This document shows positions 5-38,334 of a DNA stretch of 46,109 bases, piece by piece; position 1 is the first letter of the stretch; every line of letters starts with the position of its first letter. Both the position numbers and the translations under genes were made by a program. Under the pieces are notes generated by a model. The model was not told where the DNA came from and made no database searches. It saw only the letters and a list, made by a program, of their open reading frames with translations. Source of the DNA: Candidatus Peregrinibacteria bacterium (lineage in GTDB: Bacteria; Patescibacteriota; Gracilibacteria; UBA1369; LOWO2-01-FULL-3); the NCBI GenBank assembly GCA_014729275.1, contig WJKE01000055.1, positions 1 to 46,109 on the forward strand, given 5' to 3'.

Positions 5-79
<75 letters not shown>

Positions 80-553: not shown

Positions 554-1894
554 ATGAGAGTTCATTTTATTGGAATTGGAGGAATTGGACTTAGCGCAAT
601 TGCCCAGATAATGCGAAGTAGGGGACACAAAGTAAGCGGAAGCGACAACTGCCCAAGCGAATTAACCGAAGAATTAAAAAAACAGGGGATAGAAGTTTAC
701 GATAAGCACAGCGAAGAGAATATTAAAGATGATATTGAGCTAATTGTATATTCACCTGCAGTTCCAGACGATAATGTTGAGTTAAAAAAAGGACGAGAAA
801 CAGGGATAAAAACTATTTCTTATTCAGATGCCCTGGGACAATTAAGTGAAGAAATGTACACGGTTGCAATAGCAGGAACACACGGTAAATCTACGACAAC
901 AGCAATGACAGCGTTGATACTGGACGAAGGAGGTCTTGATCCAACCTTGGTTATTGGAACTAAAATGCCCGAGTATGAAAATAATAACTATAGGGTAGGG
1001 GATAGCAACTATCTTGTTCTTGAAGCGTGTGAATATAAACGAACTTTTTTGACTCTAAATCCGGATATTTTAATAATAACTAATATTGAAGCTGATCATC
1101 TGGATTATTATAAGGATTTAGATGACTACTGTAATGCATTTAAAGAATTAATAGCCAAAATGCCTGAAGATGGTACGGTGATAATAAATTCTAGCGATAA
1201 GAATGCAGAAAATATTGTAAAAGAGGCTAATTGCCAGGTGGTAAGGTGGGGTGACAAAACCAAGGATAATTATAAGTTCATTAATTCGTCATTAATCTTT
1301 AATGAAGCAAAAGAGCTTAGTGAATACAGCCTTAAAATAAAACCTGGAGTCCCTGGTAAATTCAACAAAGAAAACGCAGTTTTTGCAGCAATTGCAGGAG
1401 TAATTTTAGAAGTTGATGATGAAAAAATAGAAAAAGCAGTCTCGAAATTTAAAGGAACCTGGAGGAGGCTTGAAGTTAAGGAAACTCAATTTAAAGATAA
1501 AATTTTTATAGATGACTACGGCCACCACCCAACCGAAATAGCGTTGACCTTAAAGGCAATAAAGGATGAATATCCAAACAAGAAGATGCTGCTTATATAC
1601 CAACCACATCAGTATTCAAGAACTCACCACCTTCTAAAGGAATTTGGAGAATCTTTTAAAAATGCGGATGAAGTAATTATTCCAGACATATATGAAGTAA
1701 GAGATAGTCAGGAGGATAAAGACAGCGTTTCAACGGATGACCTGGTGAAAGAAATTCAAAAAAACGGAGTTTTAGCTAGTAATGGGAATGGCCTAGAAAA
1801 TACAGCTGACATTATAAAAACACGTTTATCAGAATTTGATTTGATTGTAACTATGGGAGCGGGTAATATCGATCGATTTTACTATTATCTCTAG
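554..1894 (+). CDS. murC: UDP-N-acetylmuramate--L-alanine ligase
   Basis: 446 aa. N-terminus HFIGIGGIGLSAIAQIMRSRGHKVSGSD is the MurC Rossmann signature. Mur ligase P-loop AIAGTHGKSTTTAM is present, and the C-terminal Mur ligase domain ends GAGNI. Confidence 0.93.
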   Translation: MRVHFIGIGGIGLSAIAQIMRSRGHKVSGSDNCPSELTEELKKQGIEVYDKHSEENIKDDIELIVYSPAVPDDNVELKKGRETGIKTISYSDALGQLSEEMYTVAIAGTHGKSTTTAMTALILDEGGLDPTLVIGTKMPEYENNNYRVGDSNYLVLEACEYKRTFLTLNPDILIITNIEADHLDYYKDLDDYCNAFKELIAKMPEDGTVIINSSDKNAENIVKEANCQVVRWGDKTKDNYKFINSSLIFNEAKELSEYSLKIKPGVPGKFNKENAVFAAIAGVILEVDDEKIEKAVSKFKGTWRRLEVKETQFKDKIFIDDYGHHPTEIALTLKAIKDEYPNKKMLLIYQPHQYSRTHHLLKEFGESFKNADEVIIPDIYEVRDSQEDKDSVSTDDLVKEIQKNGVLASNGNGLENTADIIKTRLSEFDLIVTMGAGNIDRFYYYL

Positions 1895-3596: not shown

Positions 3597-5735
3597 TTAG
3601 CGTACCAATTTTGAAACAGAATTTTTAACTTTTTCCTTCATCAAAACAAATCTGGAATAATTTGAATAAATATATCCCGCGATAACAGAAAAGATTAATA
3701 ACAAGGTTACTCCTGGACCGGATTCACTTTTATCTTCATCCATTTCCATAAGTTCTTCACTACCGGCAATACCGGCTTCAACCTCCGGAGGAGTAGTCTC
3801 AACTACCGGAGGAGCAGGAATACCTTTTACAACATTACTAAGCTCCTTGCCCTGAAAACCAAGCTCATCTACTGCAATAACAGCAAAATAGTATTCATCA
3901 CCATTTACAAGATTAGGAATATACCAGGTTGTATCATTAGTGAAAGTGTCCACAACATTATTTAAACTCTCCGGGTCCAGACCGAAATAAATTCTATAGT
4001 TGGAAATAGGGTTTTCATGAATAACGGGTTCAGCCCAGTTTAAAATTATTTTTTCATCATCAGGAGTAGCAGTTAGGTTTGCTACCGCCCCAATTTCAGG
4101 TTCAACAACTTGTTTTTCAATCACATTAATCGTTGCCTCAGATGAAAAACGAGATTCATTCCCCAACTCATCCAATAAAATAAAATCAAAACTATATTCA
4201 CCCGGTTCGGAAGGGGCTGAAAAAGTAGCCTTATAAAAACCATCAGAGTCGCGAGTTAAGTCATAAATACTATCATTAAATATCATTGCAGCCTGAGAAA
4301 GATCATCGGGGATAGTTAAAGTAATTGTTATTTCTTCACCAGATTCAATATCTCCTTCCGGCTCAAAACTAATCTCGGTAATTTCCGGAGCCGATGTATC
4401 AATGATAAAATTTACAATATCACTTTCATCAATAATTGTTCCTTCGCTATCTTCTATTGTTAAATACAAGGCATGTTCACCATCTACCAAAGCTGGCGAG
4501 GTATAAAGAAATTCACCATCGCCATCCACAACAACCGTATCCAGCTTAACTTCATTGTCGTAAATATTTAATTCTGAAGAAGCAGGAGCAAGGCCACTAA
4601 TTACAACAATATTATTACTGTAAGTACCAGAAACCGGATTTTCAATTTCAATTTCAGATTCCCTACTTGAACCTTCCGGAAACAAATCCTCCACTGTAAA
4701 GGTATATTCACCAAATATGGAGGGGTCATCCAGATCACGAGCCTCAATTTGATACTCGCCAGGTTGTAGGAAGGACAAAGTTAAGCTAAAAGTATGAGAA
4801 CCCAAATCTGATTCATTAAACTCATAATCCTCAGGCAGAGTAACATAAGATTCATTATCGGAAAGGACGGAAAATCTAACGGTTCCAAGATAATCATTAA
4901 CAACCGCTTCGTCATCATCCACAGCAGTTAAAGTAAAATTAATAATTTCACCTGTCCCAATCTCCTCAGGTATATCCTCAAATTTTAAACCGCTTGCTAT
5001 GCCCGAAGGCGCTCCGGAAGCGGCATATTCAAAATCCAAGTTCGAGCCGTCATAAAAACCTATTTTAGCCCTATCAGAAATAATTGTATCCGCACTAACA
5101 TCATAAGCAGTATAAGTAACAGGACCCTTAACATCTGATCTAACCCGAAAAACTATTAAGCCTTCTGCATTTGTGATATTTGAAGAATAATATTCAATAT
5201 CGCTCTCATTATCACTCGAAAGAAGCTTAACCATATGTCCTTTAATAGGATTGGCATAGTCATCGACCAATTTTACTGATATCAAAGCAGTATCCTTGCC
5301 AACATGAACCATTTGATTTGCAGGATATAACTTAGAAACCGAAGTAGAAACGCTCGAAGGAAATACTTCAAAACTTGAAAAACCTGAAAAATCGTCCATG
5401 GAATTTAACTTGGCTCTTACATAATAATCTCCTGCTTTTCTTGTATGATAGTCGGAAATTTGACCATAAGCCACGCCATTGGCATTAGACATACCATCAA
5501 ACTTAATAATTTTACCATCAGGTTTTTTCAGCTCAAAATCAATTGCTGAATTGGGAGTGGTTTTAGATGTCTGAATTCTGGTTGAAACACCCGCAACAGT
5601 ATCAAGTGCATATACTTCAAGAGGTGAAGCAGCAAAAGTGGTTTGACAAAAACCTAAAATTAATATCACAACAATACAAAGCGATAATATACTTTTTGTT
5701 TTATTTTTCAGATGTTTCATAGTTTTAGTTATCAT
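3597..5735 (-). CDS. Large secreted/cell-surface protein with Ig-like (Big_1-type) and FN3-like repeats and a C-terminal membrane anchor
   Basis: 712 aa. Signal peptide (...ILGFCQTTFA). Invasin-like Ig repeat (ALISVKLVDDYANPIKGHMVKL...VTYTAYD) and further beta-rich repeats. FN3-like module (NLTATPDDEKIILNWAEP...EYYFAVIAVDELG). Acidic linker, then SGPG + hydrophobic helix (VTLLLIFSVIAGYIY) + basic tail. Confidence 0.6.
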   Translation of the reverse strand: MITKTMKHLKNKTKSILSLCIVVILILGFCQTTFAASPLEVYALDTVAGVSTRIQTSKTTPNSAIDFELKKPDGKIIKFDGMSNANGVAYGQISDYHTRKAGDYYVRAKLNSMDDFSGFSSFEVFPSSVSTSVSKLYPANQMVHVGKDTALISVKLVDDYANPIKGHMVKLLSSDNESDIEYYSSNITNAEGLIVFRVRSDVKGPVTYTAYDVSADTIISDRAKIGFYDGSNLDFEYAASGAPSGIASGLKFEDIPEEIGTGEIINFTLTAVDDDEAVVNDYLGTVRFSVLSDNESYVTLPEDYEFNESDLGSHTFSLTLSFLQPGEYQIEARDLDDPSIFGEYTFTVEDLFPEGSSRESEIEIENPVSGTYSNNIVVISGLAPASSELNIYDNEVKLDTVVVDGDGEFLYTSPALVDGEHALYLTIEDSEGTIIDESDIVNFIIDTSAPEITEISFEPEGDIESGEEITITLTIPDDLSQAAMIFNDSIYDLTRDSDGFYKATFSAPSEPGEYSFDFILLDELGNESRFSSEATINVIEKQVVEPEIGAVANLTATPDDEKIILNWAEPVIHENPISNYRIYFGLDPESLNNVVDTFTNDTTWYIPNLVNGDEYYFAVIAVDELGFQGKELSNVVKGIPAPPVVETTPPEVEAGIAGSEELMEMDEDKSESGPGVTLLLIFSVIAGYIYSNYSRFVLMKEKVKNSVSKLVR

Positions 5736-5783: not shown

Positions 5784-5811
5784 TTGACCAAGCAAGTCAA
5801 TCTATTATAAT
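5784..5811 (+). promoter_or_regulatory. Sigma70-like promoter upstream of the PKD-7TM / ATP-grasp cassette
   Basis: TTGACC (5784-5789), 16-nt spacer, TATAAT (5806-5811), 41 nt upstream of the ATG at 5853. Confidence 0.5.
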
Positions 5812-5852: not shown

Positions 5853-7433
5853 ATGAAAAATATATTTAAAAAAATATTTACTGTATTTTATTTACTGCTG
5901 GTTATAATGCCTGGTTTAGCTTTTGCACAAGAACTAAGGGAAGAGGCACAAAGCAATGAAGGCGAGCAAAACCCCGTATATTTGCAAGCAGTAATTAGTA
6001 TCGACGAAGCTGTGGAAGTTCAAAAAAGCTCAATTTTCGATGCATCAGATTCATTTATCCCAAACGCAGAACAGGAAATTAATTTTTATTGGGATTTTGG
6101 AGATGGAAACAAAAACGAAGGCACTGAAGCAATGGAGGTTCTACACGCTTATAAGGAGCCCGGCAGGTACACAGTAAGCCTTACAGTAGACGACGGAATT
6201 AACACTTCAACAGAAACACTAGAAATTTTTGCATACAGAAAGCTTATATTCCTAATGAGTGACCAAACCGAAGCCCAGGAAAGAATCAACGTTATTAAAG
6301 ATTACGCTGAGGAACAAGGGGTATTTATAAAAATAATCGATAGTTTTGGTTCTAGTACAGAGTTTATTTCCGAGGAGATTCTTACAAAAAAGTTAAACGA
6401 GGAATCAAATATATTTCAAAAATCAGGACAAATAGTCATCTGGACAAAAGAAAACGCAGGACTAAATTCACTTTCAAGGTATTTACAGGCAAATCAGGCG
6501 GAAAAAAACAACTTATCTCAGCAAACAATTACCGTACTGGAAAACAACGTTAATGCAATAATTTCAAGAATACAGAACCAATTTCAGCTAATAAAACCAA
6601 AATCAGTAATAGTTGCAAAAGAAGCCGCTATCTACCCATTAATAGAAAGTCAAAACGACAAAGAATTTATATACAGCCTTGAAACCGGGGGATATGAGTA
6701 TGAAATAATCACAGAAGAAACAGGAAAATTACGCCCCTGGAATTTCATGTCTTATTTAGTGAACTTTCTTATAAATACGGGAATTCCCGATAACACCATA
6801 GCCTTATTACTTTTATTACCTGTTATTGCGACGGTCATCGCATTCATGAAACAATTCGTTGGACTAACAACCTTTGGAATCTACACACCATCAATCATGA
6901 CGTTATCCTTCCTTGTAATCGGTCTGCCGGCAGGACTCTTGACGCTTTTCGCAGCAATTATCGCAGGAGCAATCGCCAGGCCAATATTGAAAAAAATCCG
7001 AATGCTCTACATTCCAAAAATGGCATTAGTAATAACATTTGTATCATTGGTTCTTTTCCTTATTTTAATTTTCTCCGTTTACCTGCAACTTTTCGACTCA
7101 GCATTCTTATCAATCGCTATTTTCCCAATGCTGATTCTAAGCACACTTGTCGAAAAATTGATTAGCGTTAAGAGTGAAAAAGGTCTATCCTCAGCAATCG
7201 TGCTCATGGGAGAAACAGTATTGGTTGCAATAATTGCTTACTTTTTAGCGGGAGGAGAAATAAATTTTGGATTCACAACTATCCAATTAAGTCTAATAAA
7301 ACGCATAATCATAACCTATCCTGAGATAATTCTATTACTGTTCATTGCAAATATTATCCTTGGTAAATGGAGTGGATTAAGATTATTGGAAAGATTAAGA
7401 TTCAGAGAAATTCTAAGACATATAGAAGAATAA
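5853..7433 (+). CDS. Secreted PKD-domain protein fused to a C-terminal 7TM module of the type usually fused to inactive transglutaminases
   Basis: 526 aa. Signal peptide MKNIFKKIFTVFYLLLVIMPGLAFA. PKD signature (YWDFGDGN...HAYKEPGRYTVSLTVDDG). Unassigned middle region of ~170 aa. The C-terminal multi-pass block (LLLLPVIATVIAFMKQFVGLTTFGIYTPS...) ends GKWSGLRLLERLRFREI, which I recognise as the 7TM_transglut-type ending. Confidence 0.6.
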   Translation: MKNIFKKIFTVFYLLLVIMPGLAFAQELREEAQSNEGEQNPVYLQAVISIDEAVEVQKSSIFDASDSFIPNAEQEINFYWDFGDGNKNEGTEAMEVLHAYKEPGRYTVSLTVDDGINTSTETLEIFAYRKLIFLMSDQTEAQERINVIKDYAEEQGVFIKIIDSFGSSTEFISEEILTKKLNEESNIFQKSGQIVIWTKENAGLNSLSRYLQANQAEKNNLSQQTITVLENNVNAIISRIQNQFQLIKPKSVIVAKEAAIYPLIESQNDKEFIYSLETGGYEYEIITEETGKLRPWNFMSYLVNFLINTGIPDNTIALLLLLPVIATVIAFMKQFVGLTTFGIYTPSIMTLSFLVIGLPAGLLTLFAAIIAGAIARPILKKIRMLYIPKMALVITFVSLVLFLILIFSVYLQLFDSAFLSIAIFPMLILSTLVEKLISVKSEKGLSSAIVLMGETVLVAIIAYFLAGGEINFGFTTIQLSLIKRIIITYPEIILLLFIANIILGKWSGLRLLERLRFREILRHIEE

Positions 7434-7434
7434 A

Positions 7435-9828
7435 ATGTTAAAAAAAATATTCGGACATCACGGTATTTTAGGCATTAATGCAAGAAATTTGCTTTATTTA
7501 AGGCCATACAATCCCAAAAAAGCTATAAAACTTGCAGACGATAAAATTAAAACCAAACAATTCCTGGCAGCAAGAGAAATTCCTGTACCAAAATTATTTA
7601 ATATAATCAAAAATCCCGAAGAACTGGAAAAATTTAATTTCGAATCTTTACCAAATTCCTTTGTACTCAAACCAAATAACGGATACGGAGGAGAGGGAAT
7701 AATTCCAATAGTCGATAAAAAGGACGGATACTTTATTACTTCAAGCGGCAAGAAGTTGAATAAATATGACCTAAAAGAGCACATTAACGATATTTTGGAT
7801 GGACGTTTTTCAATATCAAATGTTGGAGATATAGCGTTTTTTGAACAGTTAGTTGTTGCTGATGAAAGAATTGGAAAATTTTCCTATAAAGGGCTTCCAG
7901 ATATCAGAGTTGTGGTTCACAATTTAATTCCGGTAATGGCCATGCTTAGGCTTCCCACAAAGGAGTCTGATGGAAAAGCAAATCTGCACCTCGGAGCGGT
8001 AGGTGTAGGAATAGACATTTCAAATGGTAAAGCCACACATATAACCTACAAAAACAGGATAATAGATGAATTGCCCGACAATAAAGGAAAAATTAAAGGC
8101 GAAAAAATTCCCTATTGGGATGAAATTTTAACCATTGCATCTAAAGCGCAATTAATTACAAACCTGGGATATCTTGCAGCTGATATTTGTATAGATAAAA
8201 ATACAGGGCCTGTAGTGCTGGAGTTAAATGCAAGAGCTGGGCTGGGCGTACAAATTGCAAATCTCGCCCCATTAAGAAAAAGATTGGAAAGGATTGAGGG
8301 AGTAAAAGTTACAAAGCCCGTAAAAGGTGTAAGAATTGCCAAAGATATGTTTGGCAACGTTGTTGAAAAAGAAATAAAAGAAATATCCGGAAAAGAAGTT
8401 ATAACCGCAGATGAAAAAGTAGAACTGATAAATAAAAAAGGAACAATCCAGGTTAAAACAAAAATAGACACCGGAAGAGAAAGATCCGTAATAGACGAAG
8501 AGTTTGCAAGTAAAAACAATCTTTTAGAAGATGAAAATTACGACGATGAGCAAGCCACAGTTAAAATAAAATTTAATATAAAAGGAAGACGTAAACAAAC
8601 AATTGCAGATTTGGAAAAATTTTCGAATAAAGATTACAAGATAATACTGGGCCGCAGGGATTTAAAAGATTTCCTCATCGATACCTCGATACAGGAAAAA
8701 AATGATATCAAAATTAAGAAAAAGAAAAAAAATTCAGTAAAAACCGGAACACCCACAAACTTCTACAAAATTGATAATATGCTCAGCAATGTAGATAATA
8801 AAATCAAGCTCCTTTACCATTTAAGGCCACTAAATCTTGAGTCCGAGAAAAAGAAATTTTTCAAAAACAAAAATTACAATCCTAATTTGGAATATCCGGC
8901 ATTAAAATTTAACCCCATGGATTTAATCGATGCACTAAATAAAATTAAGCCGGATGACTCACCATTAGGGATAATTTACAATGAAAAGAAAAAAGAAATA
9001 TTAAACAAGATAAAACTTCTTGAAAGCATTAATGAGGAAGACTTTACTAAATATTCAATAAAACTTTTTGGTGAGCCAAGCGAAAAAGATGTAAGTAACT
9101 GTATAGACTTCATAAAAACCATTGATTTTAAGAATATTAAAAAACATAAAAAATTATATAACTCAAATGATGCTCTAAAGGCATTTAACAAGGTTTTTGA
9201 TAAGTATGATCTACCCAATTGGAAGGTCAAAATTAAAGAAAATATGGTTGCAAATTGTGTCGCCGGTAAAAACAATAGGCTATTTGTTAGAGAAGGAGCA
9301 GAATTTGATAGAGATAGAATTGAAGCATTAATAGTTCACGAAATAGAAACGCACATTCTAACTGCCGAGAATGGAAAAATGCAACCATATGAAATCTTTA
9401 AGCGAGGTACAGCAAATTACTTAAAAACACAGGAAGGACTGGCAATGTATAACGTAGAAAAACAAAGACATGAACCATTTTTTAAAAACTATAAAGCCTT
9501 AGGACATGTAGTGGCAATAAGCACCAGTTTAAAAGGATCATTTTCTGATGCATATAAAGCATTAAGAGAATTGGGAATTCCAAAAGAGCAGGCATTTAGA
9601 TCGGCATTAAAGTCTAAAAGGGGATACTACGACACCTCGCAGCCGGGTGCATTTACCAAAGATTTTATTTATTACAAAGGCTACATGGAAATTAAAAAAT
9701 ATTTTGATGAAGGAGGGGATATAAAAATGCTTTACATAGGAAAAATCAGCATAGATGACATAGAGATCATAAAAAAAATCCGGGAATTAAAAGAACCTTT
9801 CATTCTTCCTGAGTGGATTAAAAAATAA
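7435..9828 (+). CDS. Tri-domain protein: RimK/alpha-L-glutamate-ligase-like ATP-grasp + retropepsin-like (RimB/'ATP-dependent Zn protease' family) peptidase + DUF1704/MATCAP-like QEGLA-motif metallopeptidase
   Basis: 797 aa, starting 1 nt after the upstream stop. The N-terminus GILGINARNLLYLRPYNPKKAIKLADDKIKTKQFL matches the ATP-grasp 'alpha-L-glutamate ligase-like' family start. The middle has KTKIDTGRERSVID (DTG at nt 8467-8475) and ILGRRDLKDFLID. The C-terminal part has HEIETH (nt 9337-9354) and QEGLA (nt 9430-9444). Confidence 0.65.
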   Translation: MLKKIFGHHGILGINARNLLYLRPYNPKKAIKLADDKIKTKQFLAAREIPVPKLFNIIKNPEELEKFNFESLPNSFVLKPNNGYGGEGIIPIVDKKDGYFITSSGKKLNKYDLKEHINDILDGRFSISNVGDIAFFEQLVVADERIGKFSYKGLPDIRVVVHNLIPVMAMLRLPTKESDGKANLHLGAVGVGIDISNGKATHITYKNRIIDELPDNKGKIKGEKIPYWDEILTIASKAQLITNLGYLAADICIDKNTGPVVLELNARAGLGVQIANLAPLRKRLERIEGVKVTKPVKGVRIAKDMFGNVVEKEIKEISGKEVITADEKVELINKKGTIQVKTKIDTGRERSVIDEEFASKNNLLEDENYDDEQATVKIKFNIKGRRKQTIADLEKFSNKDYKIILGRRDLKDFLIDTSIQEKNDIKIKKKKKNSVKTGTPTNFYKIDNMLSNVDNKIKLLYHLRPLNLESEKKKFFKNKNYNPNLEYPALKFNPMDLIDALNKIKPDDSPLGIIYNEKKKEILNKIKLLESINEEDFTKYSIKLFGEPSEKDVSNCIDFIKTIDFKNIKKHKKLYNSNDALKAFNKVFDKYDLPNWKVKIKENMVANCVAGKNNRLFVREGAEFDRDRIEALIVHEIETHILTAENGKMQPYEIFKRGTANYLKTQEGLAMYNVEKQRHEPFFKNYKALGHVVAISTSLKGSFSDAYKALRELGIPKEQAFRSALKSKRGYYDTSQPGAFTKDFIYYKGYMEIKKYFDEGGDIKMLYIGKISIDDIEIIKKIRELKEPFILPEWIKK

Positions 9829-10828
9829 ACATAGAATCCCCAAAACTAAAAAATCTATAGTTATTTGTTTTTGCTATTTCATATAACTCCATAATTTTGG
9901 AGATGGGATCTTTTACGCCCTTATGTTCTAAAAAAGAAGCAACAAGCATGATAAGTGTACTTTTAGGAAGATGAAAGTTAGTGATTAAAGAATCAACAGC
10001 CTTCCACTTATACGAACCCGGATAAATAAAAATATCAGTAGTTGACTTTTCCCCCCTAAACCTGTTAAATTTTTTATAATTCGACTCAAGCACCCTTACA
10101 GAAGTTGTGCCAACAGCTACAATTTTCTTGCCATCCTGCATAAAAGAATTCAGATTACCTGCAGTAGATTCCGAAATTTCGTATTCCTCCTCATGCATAG
10201 AGTGTTCACTAATATCTGAAGTTTTAACAGGTAAAAAAGTACCTCTCCCAACATGCAATGTAACTAATTCAGAATTAACTCCTTTATTATGTAAAGACTT
10301 AAGTAAGTCCTTTGTGAAATGTAGACCGGCTGTAGGCGCAGCTACAGATCCTTCCTCATTTGCATACACAGTTTGATAGCGGGAAAGATCAACATTCTCA
10401 TTTTTAATATATGGAGGTAGGGGAATTTTGGCCAAAGTTCTAGCTTCTACGCCAGAAAATTTAATTACACGCGTTCCATCTTCAAGAACATCTTCAACAT
10501 GGCATTCAACATCATTAACAGAAAAGGTTTTACCTTTTTTAAAAAATCGACCTGGCCTAACCATACAAACGTAAGTAAATTCATCAATTCTCTTTAATAA
10601 AAAGATTTCCTTATTTTCAAACAAAATTCTGGCTGGAACAACCTTAGACTGATTCATTACAAGAACGTGTTCAGGCCCTAAAAAACTTACAATATCTGAA
10701 AATGACTTGTGAGAAACCAGATTATTGAGAGTATCGTAAATAAGCAGTTTAGATTCATCCCGTCTTTGTGAAGGACACTGAGCTATAAATTTTTCATCAA
10801 GCTCAAAATCGAAATCACTTAGTTTCAT
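9818..10828 (-). CDS. queA: S-adenosylmethionine:tRNA ribosyltransferase-isomerase
   Basis: 336 aa. Canonical QueA start (MKLSDFDFELDEKFIAQCPSQRRDESKLL), plus VAAPTAGLHFT and VGTTSVRVLES motifs. Confidence 0.92.
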   Translation of the reverse strand: MKLSDFDFELDEKFIAQCPSQRRDESKLLIYDTLNNLVSHKSFSDIVSFLGPEHVLVMNQSKVVPARILFENKEIFLLKRIDEFTYVCMVRPGRFFKKGKTFSVNDVECHVEDVLEDGTRVIKFSGVEARTLAKIPLPPYIKNENVDLSRYQTVYANEEGSVAAPTAGLHFTKDLLKSLHNKGVNSELVTLHVGRGTFLPVKTSDISEHSMHEEEYEISESTAGNLNSFMQDGKKIVAVGTTSVRVLESNYKKFNRFRGEKSTTDIFIYPGSYKWKAVDSLITNFHLPKSTLIMLVASFLEHKGVKDPISKIMELYEIAKTNNYRFFSFGDSMFIF

Positions 10829-10831
10829 AAA

Positions 10832-11965
10832 TTACCATTTAGTCTCTATCTTTTGAGTTTCAGAACCTTTATACTCCTTATCCTTTTCCAATACAATCAA
10901 AGTCATATCATCATCCTGTTTATGATCCTGCATAAAAGTTGAAACATCCTTCGCTACATGGTAATTAAGACCTTCAGCGGAATATTGTGAAGCATGTTCC
11001 TTAATAGCTTCCTCTAGACGTTTTAAACCAAATAGCTCACCATTATTATTCCTGGCCTCTGTAATTCCATCTGTGTAAAGAATTACAAAATCGCCATCAT
11101 TCAATTCAATTTCCTTTTCAGTAATAAGCTTAGAGTTATCCGGAACCATACCAAGTGCGATACCACCTGATAAAATTTCACTACATTCACCCGTTAAATT
11201 ACGATAAACAAGTATATGTTCATGTCCAGCCCCTACATAAGTGAGACTTTGCTCTTTATGATCCCAACAAAGCATAACCATGGTCATGAACATTGCTTTT
11301 TTAACATGGGTTTTAATATGCTTATTAACATTTATAAGAACATCATAAGGATTATCATACATTTCGGCAAAAACCGATACCAATGAATTAACCATAGTCA
11401 TTATTAAACCGGCTGCCACTCCATGACCTGTAACATCTCCGACATAAATATAAGTTTTATCATCAGACGTAATAATATTAAAACTATCTCCACCAACTTC
11501 GGAAGCAGGACGATTTTTTGCAACAATTTGCATACCTGGTAGGGTGGGGGATACTAATGGCAAAATATCTCTTTGTAGATCATGAGCAATGGTTAATTCC
11601 TCAAGCATTCGCTCTCTATCCTTAATATCTGCACTTGCCTTTCCGAGACCGGCAATAACCTGATTAAAAAAATGTGCTAAAGTACCAATTTCATCTATTC
11701 TTGTTGTAAAAATTTTAGAATAACGACGTCCCGCTAAAAGTGCATCAACCTGTTTAAGAATAATCCGAATGGGACTCACAATATCAATCCAATAAAAAAA
11801 TATGAATAATAAAGATAATCCCCCCAAAGAAGCAACAAAATAAACTAAAGGAATGGCTTCAATATTGAAATATCTTAATCCGAAAAAAAGCGCCCCAATT
11901 ACCAAAGACAATATAATAAGGTTAAATATAAGTTTGGAAATTAAGTTTTTACGGATAAAAACCAT
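10832..11965 (-). CDS. Membrane-anchored HAMP-domain PP2C/SpoIIE-family serine phosphatase (RsbU/RsbP-like)
   Basis: 377 aa. Two N-terminal TM helices and a HAMP-like linker (IRIILKQVDALLAGRRYSKIFTTRIDEIGTLAHFFNQV). PP2C/SpoIIE motifs GGDSFNI, GDVTGHGVAAGLIM, LYTDGITEA and DDMTLIVL. Confidence 0.82.
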   Translation of the reverse strand: MVFIRKNLISKLIFNLIILSLVIGALFFGLRYFNIEAIPLVYFVASLGGLSLLFIFFYWIDIVSPIRIILKQVDALLAGRRYSKIFTTRIDEIGTLAHFFNQVIAGLGKASADIKDRERMLEELTIAHDLQRDILPLVSPTLPGMQIVAKNRPASEVGGDSFNIITSDDKTYIYVGDVTGHGVAAGLIMTMVNSLVSVFAEMYDNPYDVLINVNKHIKTHVKKAMFMTMVMLCWDHKEQSLTYVGAGHEHILVYRNLTGECSEILSGGIALGMVPDNSKLITEKEIELNDGDFVILYTDGITEARNNNGELFGLKRLEEAIKEHASQYSAEGLNYHVAKDVSTFMQDHKQDDDMTLIVLEKDKEYKGSETQKIETKW

Positions 11966-11966
11966 A

Positions 11967-12320
11967 TTAACTGTTTAGGAAATCATTAAGATCAGAATAT
12001 ATTTTTATAACTTCCTTAATTCCAATTGCAGAAAAAATGTCCTGAATATTGGGCTTCAGACCAACAATAACAAGTTCGCGCCCTCTTTGAGTTAGATGAG
12101 TGTGAATCTCAATTAAATATCCAATGGCTTCACTATTAATAAAGTTCAATCCGGAGAAATCAAATACAAGCGATTTGCCGGAAAAAGCCTGGATTACGCC
12201 ATCAAGTTTTTCCCTAATATCATTATGACCGGCTTTGTCGAAATCACCACTAAAGGATATTAGTTGATAATTTTTTTCAGAATCTAATTCTGAAATTTTT
12301 AAATCTAAATTTGATTCCAT
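11967..12320 (-). CDS. STAS-domain anti-sigma-factor antagonist (SpoIIAA/RsbV-like)
   Basis: 117 aa. VFDFSGLNFINSEAIGYLI carries the conserved phosphorylatable Ser context. The C-terminal part (VGLKPNIQDIFSAIGI) is typical of STAS. Confidence 0.8.
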   Translation of the reverse strand: MESNLDLKISELDSEKNYQLISFSGDFDKAGHNDIREKLDGVIQAFSGKSLVFDFSGLNFINSEAIGYLIEIHTHLTQRGRELVIVGLKPNIQDIFSAIGIKEVIKIYSDLNDFLNS

Positions 12321-12330
12321 AGTATATTGA

Positions 12331-14697
12331 TTAATGAATAATATATTTATTTATGTTTTCAATTTCATCATACTCCTCAGCCAAACAATAAAGCCATTTA
12401 AGAGTTTTCAAATTTGCTTGATCGAGTGTACTGAGTTTATTACCCTCATTTTTAATAAAAGTATCCACTCTATCAGAAACAATTTGCTTAACAATTTTAT
12501 CAATATTTTTAAAAACGCGCACGTCAACATTTCTAAGTCGCTCTTTTATATCTTTGGATATATCTTTTGAGCTTGAAAATATTAAATCAACAAGAACAGG
12601 TAAAGAATCATAATAACCCATTTTTGCAAGGGCCAAAGATGCCTGGATTTTTTCCTCCAAATTTTGTGAATACAAATAAGATAGACAAAGCTTACGTTTA
12701 TTTTTTAAATTCAGCTCGCCAATAGCATATAAAGCTAAAGAAACCTTTCTTGCATCTTTCGTAGCTAAAAACTCATTAATTTTCTTGATCGCTAATTTTA
12801 AATAAGATTTTACCCGACCAATTGAAATTGCCGTATTAATTTCCAATAGGTCATCTCCTGATTTTAAATAAGGCAAAATTAGCTTAGAAAGTGTTTCATC
12901 CCTATAATTTCCCAATGTATAAATAATTTCCGGCTTTAAATCTTCAGCCTTATCGTCCAGTAGATGAACCAGATAGTCAACAGTGCTTGTATAGCTCAAC
13001 ATACTTAAAGCATTAATAATTTTAACGCGTATTCTATGATTTTCCTCGTGCGTATACATTTCTTTAAGTTGCTCTATAATTTGTATTCTAAGATAAAGAT
13101 GCTTTTGAAGATAACGGGAAATATTTTTAAACTCTATTATGGCATTTACCGCAGCCTCACGTAATGCGGATTTTTCACTTTTTAAAAGCTCCAAAACCGT
13201 AGGTAAAGACTTGTAATAATTCAGCTCTAAAAGAGCCTTAATAATTTTAATTCTAATTGAAACTGACTCCTCTTCATTAGCCAAAACCTTCATTAAAACC
13301 TTAGCCGAAGTTCTGTGCCCTTTTTGAGCAAGTATATCAATAGCGTTAAATCGAATTTTTTTACACTTCTCATTAAATAAATCATTTATAGCCGCTTTCG
13401 AATAATTTCTTTGTTGAAGATAAGTAATTGCTCCAAGAGCGCAAATAACACAAATCATTGATAGATTTAGCGCAAAAACCAAAGACTCACCGAAAAAAAT
13501 CGCCTGAAGCGAGAAAAGAATCGCAGTACCTAAAATTGCTCCAACAGGTCTAACAATTCCCTCAAGTAATTCTCTGGTATGCTCTCGCAAATTCTCTTTA
13601 ACCGCATAATAGGCAGAGTGGTAGGCATTATTTTGAAGCACAGATGTAATTGTGTAATTATTCTTTGCCAAAACAGCAGAGCTAAATCCAAAATTTACTG
13701 TTAAGCCAAAAATACTCAACAAAGTTACAAGCGGATGAACCAGCATTGAACCAATAACACCCAAAGAATTAATTAATCTGCCTCCAACAAAAAATTGGAC
13801 AACAAGCGCGGTGGAACTGAATATTATAAATAAGGCACCCAGATCATGCACAAATGAATGTTCAAATCCACTACCCGCATCTAAAACAACATCGGAAACA
13901 TTATTATAAACAGCCTTTGTATATTGAAATTCCAAAAGATTAAAAAGTATCCATTGGAAAAGTACAATTAAAAATAATCCCTTTAAAAAATCCCTATGCC
14001 TATCCCTGGCAAATTCAATTTTTAGCTTATCGATAAGATTAATTGCACTCCTTTTTACCTCACGTTTTACAAGAACCGATATTTTCGAAAAATAATTCTC
14101 ATAAAAAAGAAGAGCGGGAATCTGGAGTAAAATTAATCCTATCCAAATATATGTAAACTTATAAACCTCCAGGCTGGATGAAAAAAGAACAACCAAAAGA
14201 CCTGCTAAAATTCCTCCCATTGTCAGAGAGGATTCAATAAGCGGAAAAGTCCTTTCACTCTGTAATGGAGTAAACATTTTTTCAGTGAAACTATCAATAA
14301 GAAGCTTTAATTGAGTTAAAAAAACAGCCTCCGCAACAATTAATAACAAGAAAAAGGCATTTTTATTAAAATCATAAATATACACCGAAAGAAGCAAAGG
14401 AATACATGCCAAAATTACAGTGTAAATCATTAACTTCTTTGTCTGAATCCTGTCTAAAATGGATGAATAAAGAATAGTACCTAAAATAGTAAAAAATCCA
14501 TTAAGTATAAAAAGAAAAGGCAATTTCGAAATACCATATTTACTAACAAATAAGGCAACAATCACCGTCCAACCCGTAACAAATGCAGCTCTGTAAAGAA
14601 ATTTTATCGACCAGGATGCCAATATTTTTGGCCATTCACCCGGATGAACATTAAATATTCTATTTACAACCGATAATAAGGAAAAATTATATAACAT
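12331..14697 (-). CDS. Multi-pass transporter (MFS / ATP:ADP-translocase-like fold) fused to C-terminal HEAT repeats
   Basis: 788 aa. About 12 hydrophobic helices over the first ~430 aa. The N-terminus (VHPGEWPKILASWSIKFLY) resembles TLC/MFS-HEAT fusion proteins. The C-terminal ~350 aa consist of repeated helical HEAT-like units (SIRIKIIKALLEL..., ALREAAVNAIIEF..., RIRVKIINALSML...). Confidence 0.6.
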   Translation of the reverse strand: MLYNFSLLSVVNRIFNVHPGEWPKILASWSIKFLYRAAFVTGWTVIVALFVSKYGISKLPFLFILNGFFTILGTILYSSILDRIQTKKLMIYTVILACIPLLLSVYIYDFNKNAFFLLLIVAEAVFLTQLKLLIDSFTEKMFTPLQSERTFPLIESSLTMGGILAGLLVVLFSSSLEVYKFTYIWIGLILLQIPALLFYENYFSKISVLVKREVKRSAINLIDKLKIEFARDRHRDFLKGLFLIVLFQWILFNLLEFQYTKAVYNNVSDVVLDAGSGFEHSFVHDLGALFIIFSSTALVVQFFVGGRLINSLGVIGSMLVHPLVTLLSIFGLTVNFGFSSAVLAKNNYTITSVLQNNAYHSAYYAVKENLREHTRELLEGIVRPVGAILGTAILFSLQAIFFGESLVFALNLSMICVICALGAITYLQQRNYSKAAINDLFNEKCKKIRFNAIDILAQKGHRTSAKVLMKVLANEEESVSIRIKIIKALLELNYYKSLPTVLELLKSEKSALREAAVNAIIEFKNISRYLQKHLYLRIQIIEQLKEMYTHEENHRIRVKIINALSMLSYTSTVDYLVHLLDDKAEDLKPEIIYTLGNYRDETLSKLILPYLKSGDDLLEINTAISIGRVKSYLKLAIKKINEFLATKDARKVSLALYAIGELNLKNKRKLCLSYLYSQNLEEKIQASLALAKMGYYDSLPVLVDLIFSSSKDISKDIKERLRNVDVRVFKNIDKIVKQIVSDRVDTFIKNEGNKLSTLDQANLKTLKWLYCLAEEYDEIENINKYIIH

Positions 14698-38192: not shown

Positions 38193-38248
38193 GTGTCCAT
38201 TTTTTTGGTATGGATCAACTGTGTCCACTTTTTGGGGTACAGATCAAT
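38193..38248. repeat. Imperfect tandem direct repeat (2 x ~28 bp) abutting the 3' end of tRNA-Leu
   Basis: GTGTCCATTTTTTTGGTATGGATCAACT (38193-38220) is followed directly by GTGTCCACTTTTTGGGGTACAGATCAAT (38221-38248). They share GTGTCCA, a T-run, GGTA and GATCAA. Position 38248 is the last base of the tRNA's CCA. Confidence 0.7.
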
Positions 38249-38334
38249 GGTGCCCAGGGAGGGACTTGAACCCTCACTTTCCAAGGAAAACTGGATTTTG
38301 AATCCAGCGCGTCTACCGGTTCCGCCACCTGGGC
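38248..38334 (-). tRNA. tRNA-Leu (anticodon CAA)
   Basis: Reverse complement is GCCCAGGTGGCGGAACCGGTAGACGCGCTGGATTCAAAATCCAGTTTTCCTTGGAAAGTGAGGGTTCAAGTCCCTCCCTGGGCACCA. This is an 87-nt class II tRNA. Acceptor GCCCAGG/CCTGGGC; anticodon arm CTGGA-TTCAAAA-TCCAG; long variable arm (TTCC-TT-GGAA); T arm GAGGG-TTCAAGT-CCCTC; CCA encoded. Confidence 0.93.

What the first reader, a model, noticed from the sequence alone, without database searches (positions are those of the whole stretch)
5853..9828. Compact two-gene cassette: secreted PKD + 7TM membrane protein coupled to an ATP-grasp / retropepsin-like / MATCAP(DUF1704)-like tri-domain enzyme
Seen in sequence:
- ORF 5853-7433 has a signal peptide, a PKD repeat (YWDFGDGN...GRYTVSLTVDDG), an unassigned ~170-aa region, and a C-terminal multi-pass block ending GKWSGLRLLERLRFREI.
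- ORF 7435-9828 starts 1 nt after the upstream stop. It strings together three modules: a RimK/alpha-L-glutamate-ligase-like ATP-grasp (GILGINARNLLYLRPYNPKKAIKLADDKIKTKQFL...); a retropepsin-like module with an intact D-T-G (nt 8467-8475) and ILGRRDLKDFLID; and a DUF1704/MATCAP-type metallopeptidase with HEIETH (nt 9337-9354) and QEGLA (nt 9430-9444).
- A good promoter sits at 5784-5811.

Established knowledge (from memory of comparative genomics of amidoligases): this 7TM module, RimK-like ATP-grasps and the retropepsin-like 'ATP-dependent Zn protease' family form a conserved operon. As far as I know it is biochemically uncharacterised. In that operon the 7TM is fused to an inactive transglutaminase.

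Inference: here the system is compacted to two genes. The transglutaminase-like ectodomain is replaced by PKD plus an unknown domain, and a second peptidase is added. The combination of a peptide-bond-forming ligase, two peptidases and a membrane/extracytoplasmic partner suggests synthesis and trimming of a peptide tag or poly-amino-acid product at the envelope. No product or substrate is known.
Basis: partly seen in the sequence, partly recalled or inferred. Interest (0 to 1): 0.8.

Follow-up and report, generated by a model that had tools for sequence, protein, structure and literature searches.

The report
Membrane-coupled glutamate ligase-peptidase gene pair
Two adjacent genes, conserved across a group of uncultured bacteria, encode a membrane protein and a three-part enzyme that probably adds and removes glutamate tails, and the membrane protein's own invariant -Glu-Glu end may be the target.

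Summary
ORF1 (5853-7433) has a signal peptide, a PKD domain, an α/β ectodomain and an RloB-type 7TM block. ORF2 (7435-9828) has an RloC-type ATP-grasp ligase, a retropepsin-like domain and a MATCAP-type HExxxH carboxypeptidase.

The retropepsin-like domain fails Pfam thresholds directly. It is homologous to RimB/RloA proteins by profile-profile comparison (99.8%) and by fold.

The parent operon is no longer uncharacterised. It is rloABC of Pseudomonas (mBio 2025), related to RimK/RimB.

The pair is adjacent in 78 of 78 Peregrinibacteria loci with upstream DNA, while flanking genes change.

Three new points:
- The D-T-G motif is intact in the window but in only 54 of 120 orthologues. In sampled systems without MATCAP it is intact in 28 of 29. 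In this clade the domain looks like a decaying protease.
- ORF1's ectodomain is not transglutaminase-like.
- ORF1's cytoplasmic tail ends in -EE, -EEE or -EEEE in every tri-domain locus. This holds even where the genes are far apart, so overlap with a ribosome-binding site does not explain it. The ending mimics the S6 and tubulin tails.

My best reading is a membrane-tethered cycle that writes and erases Glu tails. This is a new variant of a known kind.

The parts
5784..5811 (+). Promoter-like site TTGACC-16 nt-TATAAT upstream of ORF1. A mirror-image site for the divergent gene lies at 5767-5739 on the minus strand.
   Evidence: 11 of 12 positions match. The count of such sites in the region is not above shuffles, so this is plausible but not demonstrated.
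5853..7433 (+). ORF1, 526 aa: an RloB-like membrane partner with a signal peptide, PKD domain, α/β ectodomain, 7TM block and cytoplasmic tail.
   Evidence: Orthologues lie immediately upstream of the ORF2 orthologue in 78 of 78 loci with upstream DNA.
5853..5927 (+). Sec-type signal peptide, aa 1-25 (MKNIFKKIFTVFYLLLVIMPGLAFA|QE).
   Evidence: Hydropathy and sequence reading. No dedicated predictor was available.
5988..6227 (+). PKD domain, aa 46-125.
   Evidence: PKD_4 8.2e-14 and PKD 5.3e-11, both above gathering scores.
6237..6752 (+). Extracytoplasmic α/β three-layer domain of unassigned family, aa ~129-300. It carries an invariant GSSTEFISEE / WTxENxG motif.
   Evidence: The AF2 model has pLDDT 87 and alternating β-α elements. 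The best PDB matches are only E 2e-3 with TM at most 0.47, to lobes of periplasmic-binding-protein, flavodoxin-like and similar α/β folds. It is not papain- or transglutaminase-like. Invariant residues are listed.
6792..7361 (+). 7TM block of the 7TM_transglut / RloB type, aa 314-503.
   Evidence: Pfam PF14402 scores 96.4 bits. The block is 32% identical to Legionella RloB over aa 315-517.
7362..7430 (+). Conserved cytoplasmic C-terminal tail GKWSGLRLLERLRFREILRHIEE. It ends in an invariant Glu-Glu (codons 7425-7430) and is a candidate acceptor or docking element for ORF2.
   Evidence: All 82 tri-domain-clade loci end in EE, EEE or EEEE. So do the distant tri-domain members L090, L093, L094 and L098, and the split system L096. 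The ending is retained when the intergenic gap is 42-1693 nt, and its codons vary synonymously between GAA and GAG. It is absent from 32 non-redundant two-domain systems and from proteobacterial RloB.
7435..9828 (+). ORF2, 797 aa: a cytoplasmic tri-domain enzyme with no signal peptide or TM span.
   Evidence: More than 120 clusters are 59-68% identical. Relatives occur in 374 species genomes, and the best 80 are all Peregrinibacteria-type.
7450..8358 (+). RloC-type (TIGR02291) ATP-grasp amino-acid ligase domain, aa 6-308. It lacks the N-terminal domain of RimK.
   Evidence: TIGR02291 scores 290.8 bits over positions 7-315 of 317. It is 41% identical to Legionella RloC. K37, K79, G86, G88, R158, N183, H185, D250, E263 and N265 align with E. 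coli RimK, and the positions checked are invariant in 120 orthologues.
8386..8685 (+). RimB/RloA-type retropepsin-like domain, aa 318-417. D345-T346-G347 lies at 8467-8475 and the GxRDL motif at aa 406-410.
   Evidence: Fold. Homology. The catalytic motif is intact here but in only 54 of 120 orthologues, while the domain as a whole is as conserved as the MATCAP core.
8686..8772 (+). Lys-rich, poorly conserved linker, aa 418-446.
   Evidence: Mean major-residue frequency is 0.35, against 0.72-0.84 in the domains.
8773..9825 (+). MATCAP/TMCP-type (PF08014, TIGR02421 'QEGLA') gluzincin carboxypeptidase domain, aa 447-797. HEIETH lies at 9337-9354 and QEGLA at 9430-9444.
   Evidence: Pfam scores 194.7 bits. 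The PDB match is to human MATCAP1 7z5g, with HEIETH aligned to HEIGTH and TQEGLA to TEEGLA. H635, E636 and E667 are invariant, and H640 is present in 119 of 120.

Best explanation
This is the Peregrinibacteria (candidate phyla radiation) version of the Rlo/Rim family of glutamate-ligase systems, reduced to two translationally coupled genes.

**Shown**
- ORF1 is an RloB-type 7TM protein. Its outside part is a PKD domain plus an α/β domain, not an inactive transglutaminase. Its conserved cytoplasmic tail ends in -Glu-Glu.
- ORF2 is a cytoplasmic fusion of three parts:
  - an RloC-type ATP-grasp ligase with all catalytic residues;
  - a RimB/RloA-type retropepsin-like domain whose D-T-G motif is decaying across the clade;
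  - a MATCAP/TMCP-type HExxxH metallocarboxypeptidase with all catalytic residues.

**Inferred mechanism**
- The pair forms a membrane-tethered 'write/erase' machine for α-linked glutamate tails at the cytoplasmic face.
- The ligase extends an acidic C-terminus with ATP. [quoted passage not shown]
- The MATCAP domain removes residues one at a time from that C-terminus, as TMCP1/2 do on Glu-rich tubulin tails.
- The retropepsin-like domain mainly binds the poly-Glu chain, dimerises the enzyme and/or activates the ligase, as RimB does for RimK. It may cleave only in the species that keep D-T-G, which include this one.
- The ectodomain would couple tail length to conditions in the cell envelope.

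**My estimates**
- Family assignment: about 0.9.
- Glutamate chemistry: about 0.6.
- ORF1 tail as the acceptor: about 0.3.
For: **Domains and catalytic residues:**

**Retropepsin-like fold and homology:**

**The pair is a unit**
- The genes are adjacent on the same strand in 78 of 78 loci with upstream DNA, across 47-67% (ORF2) and 34-68% (ORF1) identity.
- queA, spoIIE, STAS and the Big/fn3 gene drop out in divergent loci.
- The same pairing occurs in other architectures.

**Glutamate chemistry**
- The ligase is 41% identical to RloC of a canonical rloABC operon in Legionella.
- RloA cleaves poly-Glu, and rloB/rloC deletions suppress the loss of RloA (PMC12239564).
- RimB cleaves poly-Glu and stimulates poly-Glu synthesis by RimK (PMC11957791).
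- TMCP/MATCAP enzymes remove C-terminal residues one at a time from tubulin tails and deglutamylate them (PMC10499314).

**The tail as acceptor**
- -EE, -EEE or -EEEE ends every tri-domain-clade ORF1. The number of Glu residues varies and the preceding sequence differs (…RHIEE, …NRNTEE, …PTDSEE, …LQDLEE).
- The ending persists where the genes are 42-1693 nt apart, and its codons change synonymously.
- It is absent from 32 non-redundant two-domain systems and from proteobacterial RloB.
- It is the only one of 37 ORFs of at least 150 aa in the window that ends in EE.

**Division of labour between the peptidases**
- D[TS]G is intact in 28 of 29 sampled systems without MATCAP. It is intact in 54 of 120 tri-domain orthologues.
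Against: - No product, substrate or activity has been measured for any member of this clade.
- Four systems with a MATCAP gene lack the -EE end: L088 (MATCAP fused, plus a second separate copy) and L169, L172 and L135 (MATCAP encoded separately). L097 has a single terminal Glu. The -EE end is therefore a trait of the fused, DTG-relaxed clade, not of every MATCAP-containing system. The association is also confounded by shared ancestry.
- Proteobacterial RloB has no acidic C-terminus although RloC is homologous. In the parent system the acceptor must therefore be something else, or free glutamate.
- RloC-type ligases lack the N-terminal domain of RimK, so acceptor recognition cannot be transferred from RimK.
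- TIGR02291 and TIGR02421 scores fall below NCBI's equivalog cut-offs.
- The topology rests on hydropathy only.
- The amino acid that is added could be something other than Glu.
Confidence: 0.45

Rival explanations
1. Free-polymer export model. The ligase makes free poly-α-glutamate (or another short peptide) from amino acids. The 7TM protein exports it or anchors its synthesis at the membrane, and the polymer acts in the cell envelope, for example as a polyanion or osmotic buffer. The cytoplasmic peptidase domains only limit chain length or recycle product. ORF1's tail, including -EE, is merely a docking site or primer mimic.
For: RimK makes free poly-α-Glu, and RimB stimulates this (PMC11957791). 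In Pseudomonas the RloA protease is periplasmic, and its loss is toxic only when RloB and RloC are present. That fits an exported product which accumulates (PMC12239564). The G-x-R-L-x-E-x-x-R-F tail motif is shared with RloB proteins that lack -EE, so the tail has a general role in docking.
Against: In this cassette both peptidase modules are cytoplasmic, so nothing would trim an exported product. No transport function is known for the 7TM_transglut family. The model does not explain why the extreme C-terminus is held as Glu-Glu, with a variable number of Glu residues, only in this clade.
Confidence: 0.28
2. Another acceptor. The enzyme modifies a different protein, or a cell-wall precursor or stem peptide, and the 7TM protein is a sensor or regulator that switches the enzyme in response to the state of the envelope.
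For: Cell-wall genes recur next to these systems in unrelated contexts. Examples are a Mur ligase (window 554-1894; L090, L091, L098), MurJ (window 14809-16371), a class A PBP (L095) and MreB (L096). rlo mutants have defects in cell shape and β-lactam sensitivity (PMC12239564). L088 carries three extra ATP-grasp ligases and a second MATCAP, which suggests a hetero-peptide product.
Against: The neighbouring cell-wall genes differ from locus to locus and are housekeeping genes of small genomes. No specific candidate acceptor co-varies with the pair. MATCAP-type enzymes are known only as carboxypeptidases acting on protein tails.
Confidence: 0.15
3. A RimK-like modifier of ribosomal protein S6. 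ORF2 glutamylates S6 as RimK does, and trims it as RimB does. The membrane protein is only a neighbour or an anchor.
For: The rimK_fam model matches (5e-17). A RimB-RimK fusion (RimBK) exists and is active on glutamylated S6.
Against: The ligase matches TIGR02291/RloC (290.8 bits) far better than rimK_fam (62 bits). It lacks RimK's N-terminal domain. The domain order is the reverse of RimBK. The ligase is invariably coupled to a 7TM gene.
Confidence: 0.05
4. The terminal Glu-Glu codons (GAAGAA) of ORF1 are conserved as the ribosome-binding site of the translationally coupled ORF2, not for any role in the protein.
For: In the window and many loci the stop codon lies 1-12 nt before the ORF2 start, so the purine-rich GAAGAA sits where a Shine-Dalgarno sequence would.
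Against: All 22 tri-domain-clade loci with gaps of 42-1693 nt between the genes still end in EE or EEE. The codons vary between GAA and GAG (142:33) while the amino acid stays constant. Two-domain systems with equally tight coupling end in KK and similar residues.
Confidence: 0.03

Closest known systems
RloABC operon of Pseudomonas aeruginosa and other Gammaproteobacteria (Lormand et al., mBio 2025, PMC12239564)
   Same: A 7TM_transglut-family membrane protein is encoded directly upstream of a TIGR02291-type ATP-grasp ligase, together with a PF05618 retropepsin-like module. The 7TM block is 32% identical and the ligase 41% identical to the Legionella rloB and rloC products.
   Different: - The ectodomain is PKD plus an α/β domain, not an inactive transglutaminase.
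- The retropepsin-like module is fused to the cytoplasmic ligase rather than secreted, and it is losing its D-T-G motif.
- A MATCAP-type carboxypeptidase is added.
- The 7TM protein ends in -EE, whereas RloB does not.
- It occurs in CPR bacteria, whereas 96% of RloB hits were reported from Proteobacteria.
RimK / RimB and the RimBK hybrid (Little et al., JBC 2025, PMC11957791)
   Same: An α-L-glutamate ligase of the ATP-grasp fold is paired, or fused, with a cytoplasmic retropepsin-like protein that binds and cleaves poly-Glu and stimulates the ligase. The acceptor is a protein C-terminus that ends in acidic residues.
   Different: - The ligase belongs to the RloC family, not RimK, and lacks RimK's N-terminal domain.
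- The fusion order is ligase then retropepsin, the opposite of RimBK.
- There is an obligatory membrane partner and an extra metallocarboxypeptidase.
- The ribosomal protein is unlikely to be the target.
Eukaryotic tubulin-tail cycle: TTL/TTLL ATP-grasp ligases versus MATCAP/TMCP1-2 carboxypeptidases (PMC10499314; PDB 7z5g)
   Same: An ATP-grasp amino-acid ligase and a MATCAP-family HExxxH + (E/Q)EG gluzincin carboxypeptidase act, or would act, on a Glu-rich C-terminal tail ending in -EE(X). The catalytic motifs align residue for residue with human MATCAP1.
   Different: - Ligase and peptidase sit in one polypeptide.
- The ligase is RimK/RloC-like, not TTL-like.
- The putative substrate is a 7TM membrane protein, not tubulin.
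- The similarity in mechanism is an inference, not a demonstrated activity.
[quoted passage not shown]
   Same: The same peptidase family, with the same HExxxH and QEGLA motifs (198 bits).
   Different: Those proteins are stand-alone, and the score here is below the equivalog cut-off of 338.65. The proteobacterial proteins have no defined biochemistry. One was reported as 27-fold induced at low salinity in Photobacterium (PMC10308900).

Membership tests
7TM_transglut (PF14402) / RloB (NF052267) | C-terminal seven-helix membrane block with the G-x-R-L-x-E-x-x-R-F tail | tested here: met
   PF14402 scores 96.4 bits against a cut-off of 25. It is 32% identical to Legionella RloB over aa 315-517.
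7TM_transglut (PF14402) / RloB (NF052267) | N-terminal periplasmic inactive transglutaminase domain | tested here: not met
   NF052267 matches only model positions 311-507 and scores 64.7 bits against a cut-off of 900. There is no BLAST similarity in the ectodomain. The modelled ectodomain is an α/β sandwich preceded by a PKD domain.
RloC / TIGR02291 alpha-L-glutamate ligase-like ATP-grasp | Full-length match to the family model | tested here: inconclusive
   It scores 290.8 bits over positions 7-315 of 317, just below the curated cut-off of 314.2. It is 41% identical to Legionella RloC.
RloC / TIGR02291 alpha-L-glutamate ligase-like ATP-grasp | ATP-grasp nucleotide- and Mg-binding residues (Lys, Gly-rich loop, D…E-x-N) | tested here: met
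   K37, K79, G86, G88, R158, N183, H185, D250, E263 and N265 align with E. coli RimK. The positions checked are invariant in 120 orthologues.
RloC / TIGR02291 alpha-L-glutamate ligase-like ATP-grasp | Encoded directly downstream of a 7TM_transglut gene | tested here: met
   78 of 78 loci. The same holds in Legionella, Aeromonas and the metagenomic two-domain systems.
RloC / TIGR02291 alpha-L-glutamate ligase-like ATP-grasp | Ligates L-glutamate | not testable with these tools
   This needs an enzyme assay. As far as I could find, it has not been shown for RloC itself either.
RimB/RloA retropepsin-like peptidases (PF05618, clan AA) | Match to the family model above threshold | tested here: not met
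   There is no PF05618 hit for the window protein, and Asp_protease_2 scores E 0.08. 13 of 25 orthologues hit Asp_protease_2 or gag-asp_proteas weakly.
RimB/RloA retropepsin-like peptidases (PF05618, clan AA) | Retropepsin fold and homology to family members | tested here: met
   Foldseek hits Ddi1 RVP, RloA (9g58, 9g59) and Lpg0085 (2pma). hhalign against standalone members gives 99.8%, E 7e-29. Relatives found with the profile pass the PF05618 threshold.
RimB/RloA retropepsin-like peptidases (PF05618, clan AA) | Conserved catalytic D-T/S-G(-A) | tested here: inconclusive
   It is present in the window as D345-T346-G347-R. Among 120 orthologues, Asp is present in 104, Gly in 62 and the full motif in 54. 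In standalone members the Asp and Gly are invariant and Ala is present in at least 90%. The motif is intact in 28 of 29 two-domain systems without MATCAP.
RimB/RloA retropepsin-like peptidases (PF05618, clan AA) | Signal peptide (the feature that defines RloA as opposed to RimB) | tested here: not met
   The domain is internal to a cytoplasmic protein with no hydrophobic span. It therefore resembles RimB in location.
MATCAP / TMCP (PF08014; TIGR02421 QEGLA) | Match to the family model | tested here: met
   PF08014 scores 194.7 bits against a cut-off of 27. The TIGR02421 score of 198.4 bits is below its equivalog cut-off of 338.65. The PDB match to MATCAP1 7z5g is E 1.4e-14 for the single sequence and 1.2e-18 for the profile.
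MATCAP / TMCP (PF08014; TIGR02421 QEGLA) | HExxxH zinc site plus a downstream (E/Q)EG glutamate | tested here: met
   HEIETH aligns with HEIGTH and TQEGLA with TEEGLA of human MATCAP1. H635, E636 and E667 are invariant, and H640 is present in 119 of 120. The motif is defined in PMC10499314.
MATCAP / TMCP (PF08014; TIGR02421 QEGLA) | Carboxypeptidase activity on acidic C-terminal tails | not testable with these tools
   This needs an enzyme assay.

The most novel reading that the evidence does not exclude
The 7TM partner's own cytoplasmic C-terminus, with its invariant -Glu-Glu, is the substrate. The fused ATP-grasp domain extends it with amino acids and the fused MATCAP domain trims it back. 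This would be a bacterial, membrane-anchored counterpart of the tubulin-tail tyrosination/glutamylation cycle. It would be only the second case of C-terminal protein extension in bacteria, after ribosomal protein S6. It would also give the first biochemical role for prokaryotic MATCAP/DUF1704 proteins and a lead on what Rlo-type ligases act on.
Probability: 0.3. Interest if true: 0.85.

Novelty: new variant of a known kind. Interest (0 to 1): 0.62.

Why it matters
[quoted passage not shown] What its ligase makes or modifies is unknown. This CPR variant puts the ligase, a poly-Glu-binding module and a tail-trimming carboxypeptidase in one protein, next to a membrane partner with a conserved -EE end. 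That gives a concrete substrate hypothesis that mass spectrometry can test.
- **Link to MATCAP.** Bacterial MATCAP/DUF1704 proteins have no known biochemistry. Here one sits with the same kind of ligase/peptidase pairing that edits tubulin tails in eukaryotes. This bears on where that machinery came from.
- **Domain evolution.** The decay of the retropepsin catalytic motif only where MATCAP is fused is a clean example of a protease domain being kept for a non-catalytic role.
- **Limits.** The domain architecture is already visible in public annotations, the system belongs to a known kind, and every mechanistic step remains untested.

Tried and rejected
- **Direct library searches for the middle domain.** Direct Pfam and NCBIfam detection of PF05618 found nothing above threshold. 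A profile of 25 orthologues found nothing in PDB sequences. Fold and profile-profile methods were needed.
- **Family of ORF1's ectodomain (aa 122-312).** Pfam gave only a sub-threshold S6PP match. Foldseek against the PDB gave no significant match. The domain stays unassigned, but a transglutaminase-like fold is rejected.
- **Do all RloB-type proteins end in -EE?** Rejected. Legionella and Aeromonas RloB do not.
- **Does the -EE end track every MATCAP-containing system?** Rejected. L088, L135, L169 and L172 are exceptions and L097 has a single Glu.
- **The -EE codons as a ribosome-binding site.** Rejected.
- **The upstream Big/fn3 surface protein as an obligatory third component.** Rejected. 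It is lost in the divergent loci L064-L083 while the pair stays.
- **RNA elements.** An Rfam scan of the window found only two tRNAs, so there is no riboswitch or leader near the cassette.
- **Literature.** The 2009 comparative-genomics paper on amidoligases (PMC3268129) is not held. A literature search found no description of the tri-domain fusion or of any RloC activity.
- **Failed scan.** A first metagenome scan with a 10-sequence 7TM alignment failed because no stretch was conserved enough. It was repeated with four sequences.

Full report
**1. The observation**

- The two ORFs are present exactly as described: 5853-7433 (526 aa) and 7435-9828 (797 aa). They are on the same strand and one base lies between stop and start.
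- All three quoted motif positions are exact: DTG at 8467-8475, HEIETH at 9337-9354 and QEGLA at 9430-9444.
- For ORF1, Pfam finds PKD (aa 46-125) and 7TM_transglut (aa 314-520, 96 bits). For ORF2 it finds ATPgrasp_ST (aa 17-288, 2.4e-68) and MATCAP (aa 474-786, 3e-57).
- NCBIfam finds the RloB model, but only its 7TM part, for ORF1. For ORF2 it finds TIGR02291 (1e-86) and TIGR02421 'QEGLA' (2e-58).
- The promoter-like site at 5784-5811 matches 11 of 12 positions. Such sites are no more frequent in this AT-rich region than in shuffles.
- ORF1 has a Sec-type signal peptide and seven hydrophobic spans. The positive-inside pattern places its C-tail in the cytoplasm. ORF2 has no hydrophobic span.

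**2. The retropepsin-like module**

This was the least certain claim, and library searches failed to recover it.

- An AF2 model of aa ~309-425, built on 25 orthologues, is confident (pLDDT 84.7). Its best PDB matches are retroviral-protease-like domains: Ddi1, the new RloA structures 9g58 and 9g59, and Lpg0085 (2pma), at TM 0.55-0.64.
- A profile of the domain was searched against 1.84 billion representative proteins and found 253 relatives. Several pass the PF05618 threshold. They fall into five architectures:
  - tri-domain proteins of ~800 aa;
  - ATP-grasp + retropepsin proteins of ~430-470 aa;
  - stand-alone proteins of 110-190 aa;
  - a retropepsin + 7TM_transglut fusion;
  - a class I LysRS + retropepsin fusion.
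- Profile-profile comparison with the stand-alone proteins gives 99.8% probability, E 7e-29.

The catalytic motif, however, is not conserved.

- Among 120 orthologues at 59-68% identity, Asp is kept in 104, Gly in 62 and the full D-T-G in only 54.
- The domain as a whole is as conserved as the MATCAP core (0.72 against 0.72).
- Every ATP-grasp and MATCAP catalytic residue checked is invariant, apart from H640, which is present in 119 of 120.
- In stand-alone relatives the Asp and Gly are invariant and the following Ala is present in at least 90%.
- In 29 non-redundant two-domain systems without MATCAP, D[TS]G is intact in 28.

The domain thus looks like a protease that is losing catalysis while being kept for another role. 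This happens specifically where a second peptidase is fused.

**3. What the system is**

It is rloABC of P. aeruginosa.
- RloA proteases are secreted retropepsins that cleave runs of at least 8 Glu. Deleting rloB (inactive transglutaminase + 7TM) or rloC (ATP-grasp) suppresses the rloA1-3 triple mutant (PMC12239564).
[quoted passage not shown] RimB both trims poly-Glu and stimulates poly-Glu synthesis by RimK, and a RimB-RimK hybrid exists (PMC11957791).
- ORF2's ligase is 41% identical to RloC of a canonical rloABC operon on a Legionella plasmid. ORF1's 7TM block is 32% identical to that operon's RloB.
- Aligned with E. coli RimK, the ligase keeps the Lys, Gly-loop and D…E-x-N residues but lacks RimK's N-terminal domain.
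- The C-terminal domain aligns with human MATCAP1 (7z5g) through the catalytic HExxxH and (E/Q)EGLA motifs. MATCAP/TMCP enzymes remove residues one at a time from Glu-rich tubulin tails, and they also deglutamylate (PMC10499314).
- ORF1's region between PKD and 7TM models confidently as an α/β three-layer sandwich with no significant structural relative. It is not a transglutaminase fold.

**4. Distribution and linkage**

- ORF2-like tri-domain proteins are abundant in Peregrinibacteria/Peribacteria. There are more than 120 clusters at 59-68% identity. Relatives occur in 374 species genomes, and the top 80 are all of this lineage, down to 47% identity.
- An ORF1 orthologue lies directly upstream on the same strand in all 78 loci that contain upstream DNA.
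- The flanking genes are lost in the divergent loci. These are the Big/fn3 surface protein, queA, spoIIE and STAS. The pair is therefore linked beyond lineage synteny.
- Related systems keep the 7TM-then-ligase order with other make-ups:
  - split MATCAP genes (L096, L097, L169, L172);
  - no MATCAP at all, which is most of the 80 metagenomic loci;
  - a retropepsin-7TM fusion (L092);
  - an expanded cluster with three more ATP-grasp ligases and a second MATCAP (L088).

**5. A new clue: the C-terminus of ORF1**

- In all 82 tri-domain-clade loci the 7TM protein ends at its extreme C-terminus in -EE, -EEE or -EEEE.
- The same is true of the distant tri-domain members L090, L093, L094 and L098 and the split system L096, whose preceding tail sequences are unrelated (…VEHAEE, …RHDIEE, …NRNTEE, …PTDSEE, …LQDLEE).
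- I considered that GAAGAA might simply be the ribosome-binding site of the coupled ORF2. That explanation fails for two reasons:
  - 22 loci with gaps of 42-1693 nt between the genes keep the ending;
  - the codons vary between GAA and GAG while the residue stays constant.
- The ending is absent from Legionella and Aeromonas RloB.
- It is also absent from 32 non-redundant two-domain systems, which mostly end in Lys-rich tails.
- It is the only one of 37 ORFs of at least 150 aa in the window that ends in EE.
- The association with MATCAP is not perfect. L088 (fused MATCAP plus a second copy) and L135, L169 and L172 (MATCAP encoded separately) all keep an intact D-T-G and lack the ending. L097 has a single Glu.
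- The -EE end is therefore a trait of the fused, DTG-relaxed clade, and shared ancestry confounds the statistics.
- Even so, an invariant acidic C-terminus with a variable number of Glu residues sits on the cytoplasmic tail of the ligase's obligatory partner. From established knowledge, this is what the acceptor of RimK looks like (S6 ends in Glu-Glu). It is also what a TTL/MATCAP substrate looks like (α-tubulin …GEE(Y)).

**6. Mechanism**

- *Shown:* the domain composition, intact ligase and metallopeptidase sites, the cytoplasmic location of ORF2, the conserved linkage, the decay of D-T-G and the conserved -EE tail.
- *Inferred:* the pair is a membrane-tethered write/erase system for α-linked Glu tails.
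  - The ligase extends an acidic C-terminus, most attractively ORF1's own.
  - The MATCAP domain trims it residue by residue.
  - The retropepsin-like domain binds poly-Glu, dimerises and/or activates the ligase, as RimB does. It may still cleave in species such as this one that keep D-T-G.
  - The PKD + α/β ectodomain would couple the cycle to conditions outside the cell.
- *Main rival:* the ligase makes free poly-α-Glu that is exported with the help of the 7TM protein. That model fits the Pseudomonas genetics. It leaves the cytoplasmic peptidases and the -EE end unexplained.
- *Less likely:* another acceptor, such as a cell-wall precursor or another protein, or S6.

**7. Novelty and verdict**

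- The feature is real and strongly conserved. It belongs to a known kind of system (Rlo/Rim).
- Public annotation already shows the ATP-grasp + DUF1704 fusion (for example the JGI name 'alpha-L-glutamate ligase-like protein/uncharacterized protein (TIGR02421 family)').
- I found no paper describing the following:
  - the tri-domain enzyme;
  - its pseudo-protease middle domain;
  - the replaced ectodomain;
  - the -EE tail.
- I classify it as a new variant of a known kind, with interest of about 0.6.
- The most novel reading that the evidence allows is that ORF1's tail is the substrate. I put its probability at about 0.3. It would be highly interesting and is directly testable by mass spectrometry.

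Noticed in passing
window 3597-5735 (-): A 712-aa surface protein is transcribed divergently from ORF1. It has a signal peptide, Big_1/Big_13/Invasin_D3/fn3 domains and a C-terminal TM anchor, and it has its own promoter-like site (5767-5739). It is syntenic in 53 of the related loci but lost in the most divergent ones, so it is probably not part of the system.
   Followed up: partly
window 9818-9828: ORF2 and the convergent queA gene (9818-10828, minus strand) overlap by 11 nt at their 3' ends. No terminator-like hairpin was found between them.
   Followed up: no
window 10832-14697 (-): A SpoIIE/PP2C phosphatase with an N-terminal membrane/HAMP-like region, a STAS-domain protein and a 788-aa HEAT-repeat protein form a conserved block downstream. 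It looks like a partner-switching module in a CPR genome. Its function is unknown.
   Followed up: no
window 554-1894 (+), 14809-16371 (+); loci L090, L091, L095, L096, L098: Cell-wall or cell-shape genes recur next to 7TM/ligase systems in otherwise different contexts. Examples are a Mur ligase, MurJ, a class A PBP and MreB. This echoes the cell-shape and β-lactam phenotypes of rlo mutants.
   Followed up: partly
L088 1870-10678: An expanded cluster: PKD-7TM, a tri-domain enzyme with canonical DTGA, then three further ATP-grasp ligases (GARS_A-like, RimK/GSH-S-like, Ddl-like) and a second 575-aa MATCAP protein. The 7TM protein here ends in …KKHRA, not EE. This suggests a hetero-peptide product.
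   Followed up: partly
L092 953-4402: Another architecture: a secreted RimB-like protein, a RimB-like + 7TM_transglut fusion (368 aa, the retropepsin domain replacing the transglutaminase ectodomain), an ATP-grasp ligase, and a 307-aa secreted Asp_protease_2 protein.
   Followed up: no
protein P0146: A 539-aa protein fuses a class I lysyl-tRNA synthetase (PF01921) to a C-terminal RimB-like retropepsin domain (PF05618, 27.2 bits). This combination was unexpected.
   Followed up: no
alignment A9: RloC-type ligases (window, Legionella, Aeromonas, L095) start at about residue 95 of E. coli RimK. They therefore lack RimK's whole N-terminal domain, and they carry two insertions of about 20-30 residues. 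Acceptor recognition must differ from RimK.
   Followed up: partly
L005, L008: Two MAGs labelled Nitrospirota carry contigs with the Peregrinibacteria gene order and 66-67% identical proteins. These contigs are probably mis-binned.
   Followed up: no
L086 / NZ_AP026896.1: The PLSDB record 'Aeromonas caviae plasmid pKAM479_3' is 4.94 Mb and carries an rloABC-like locus. It is evidently a chromosome filed as a plasmid.
   Followed up: no
window 5-79 (-), 38248-38334 (-): tRNA-Met(CAT) and tRNA-Leu(CAA) genes are present. No other Rfam family occurs in the window.
   Followed up: yes
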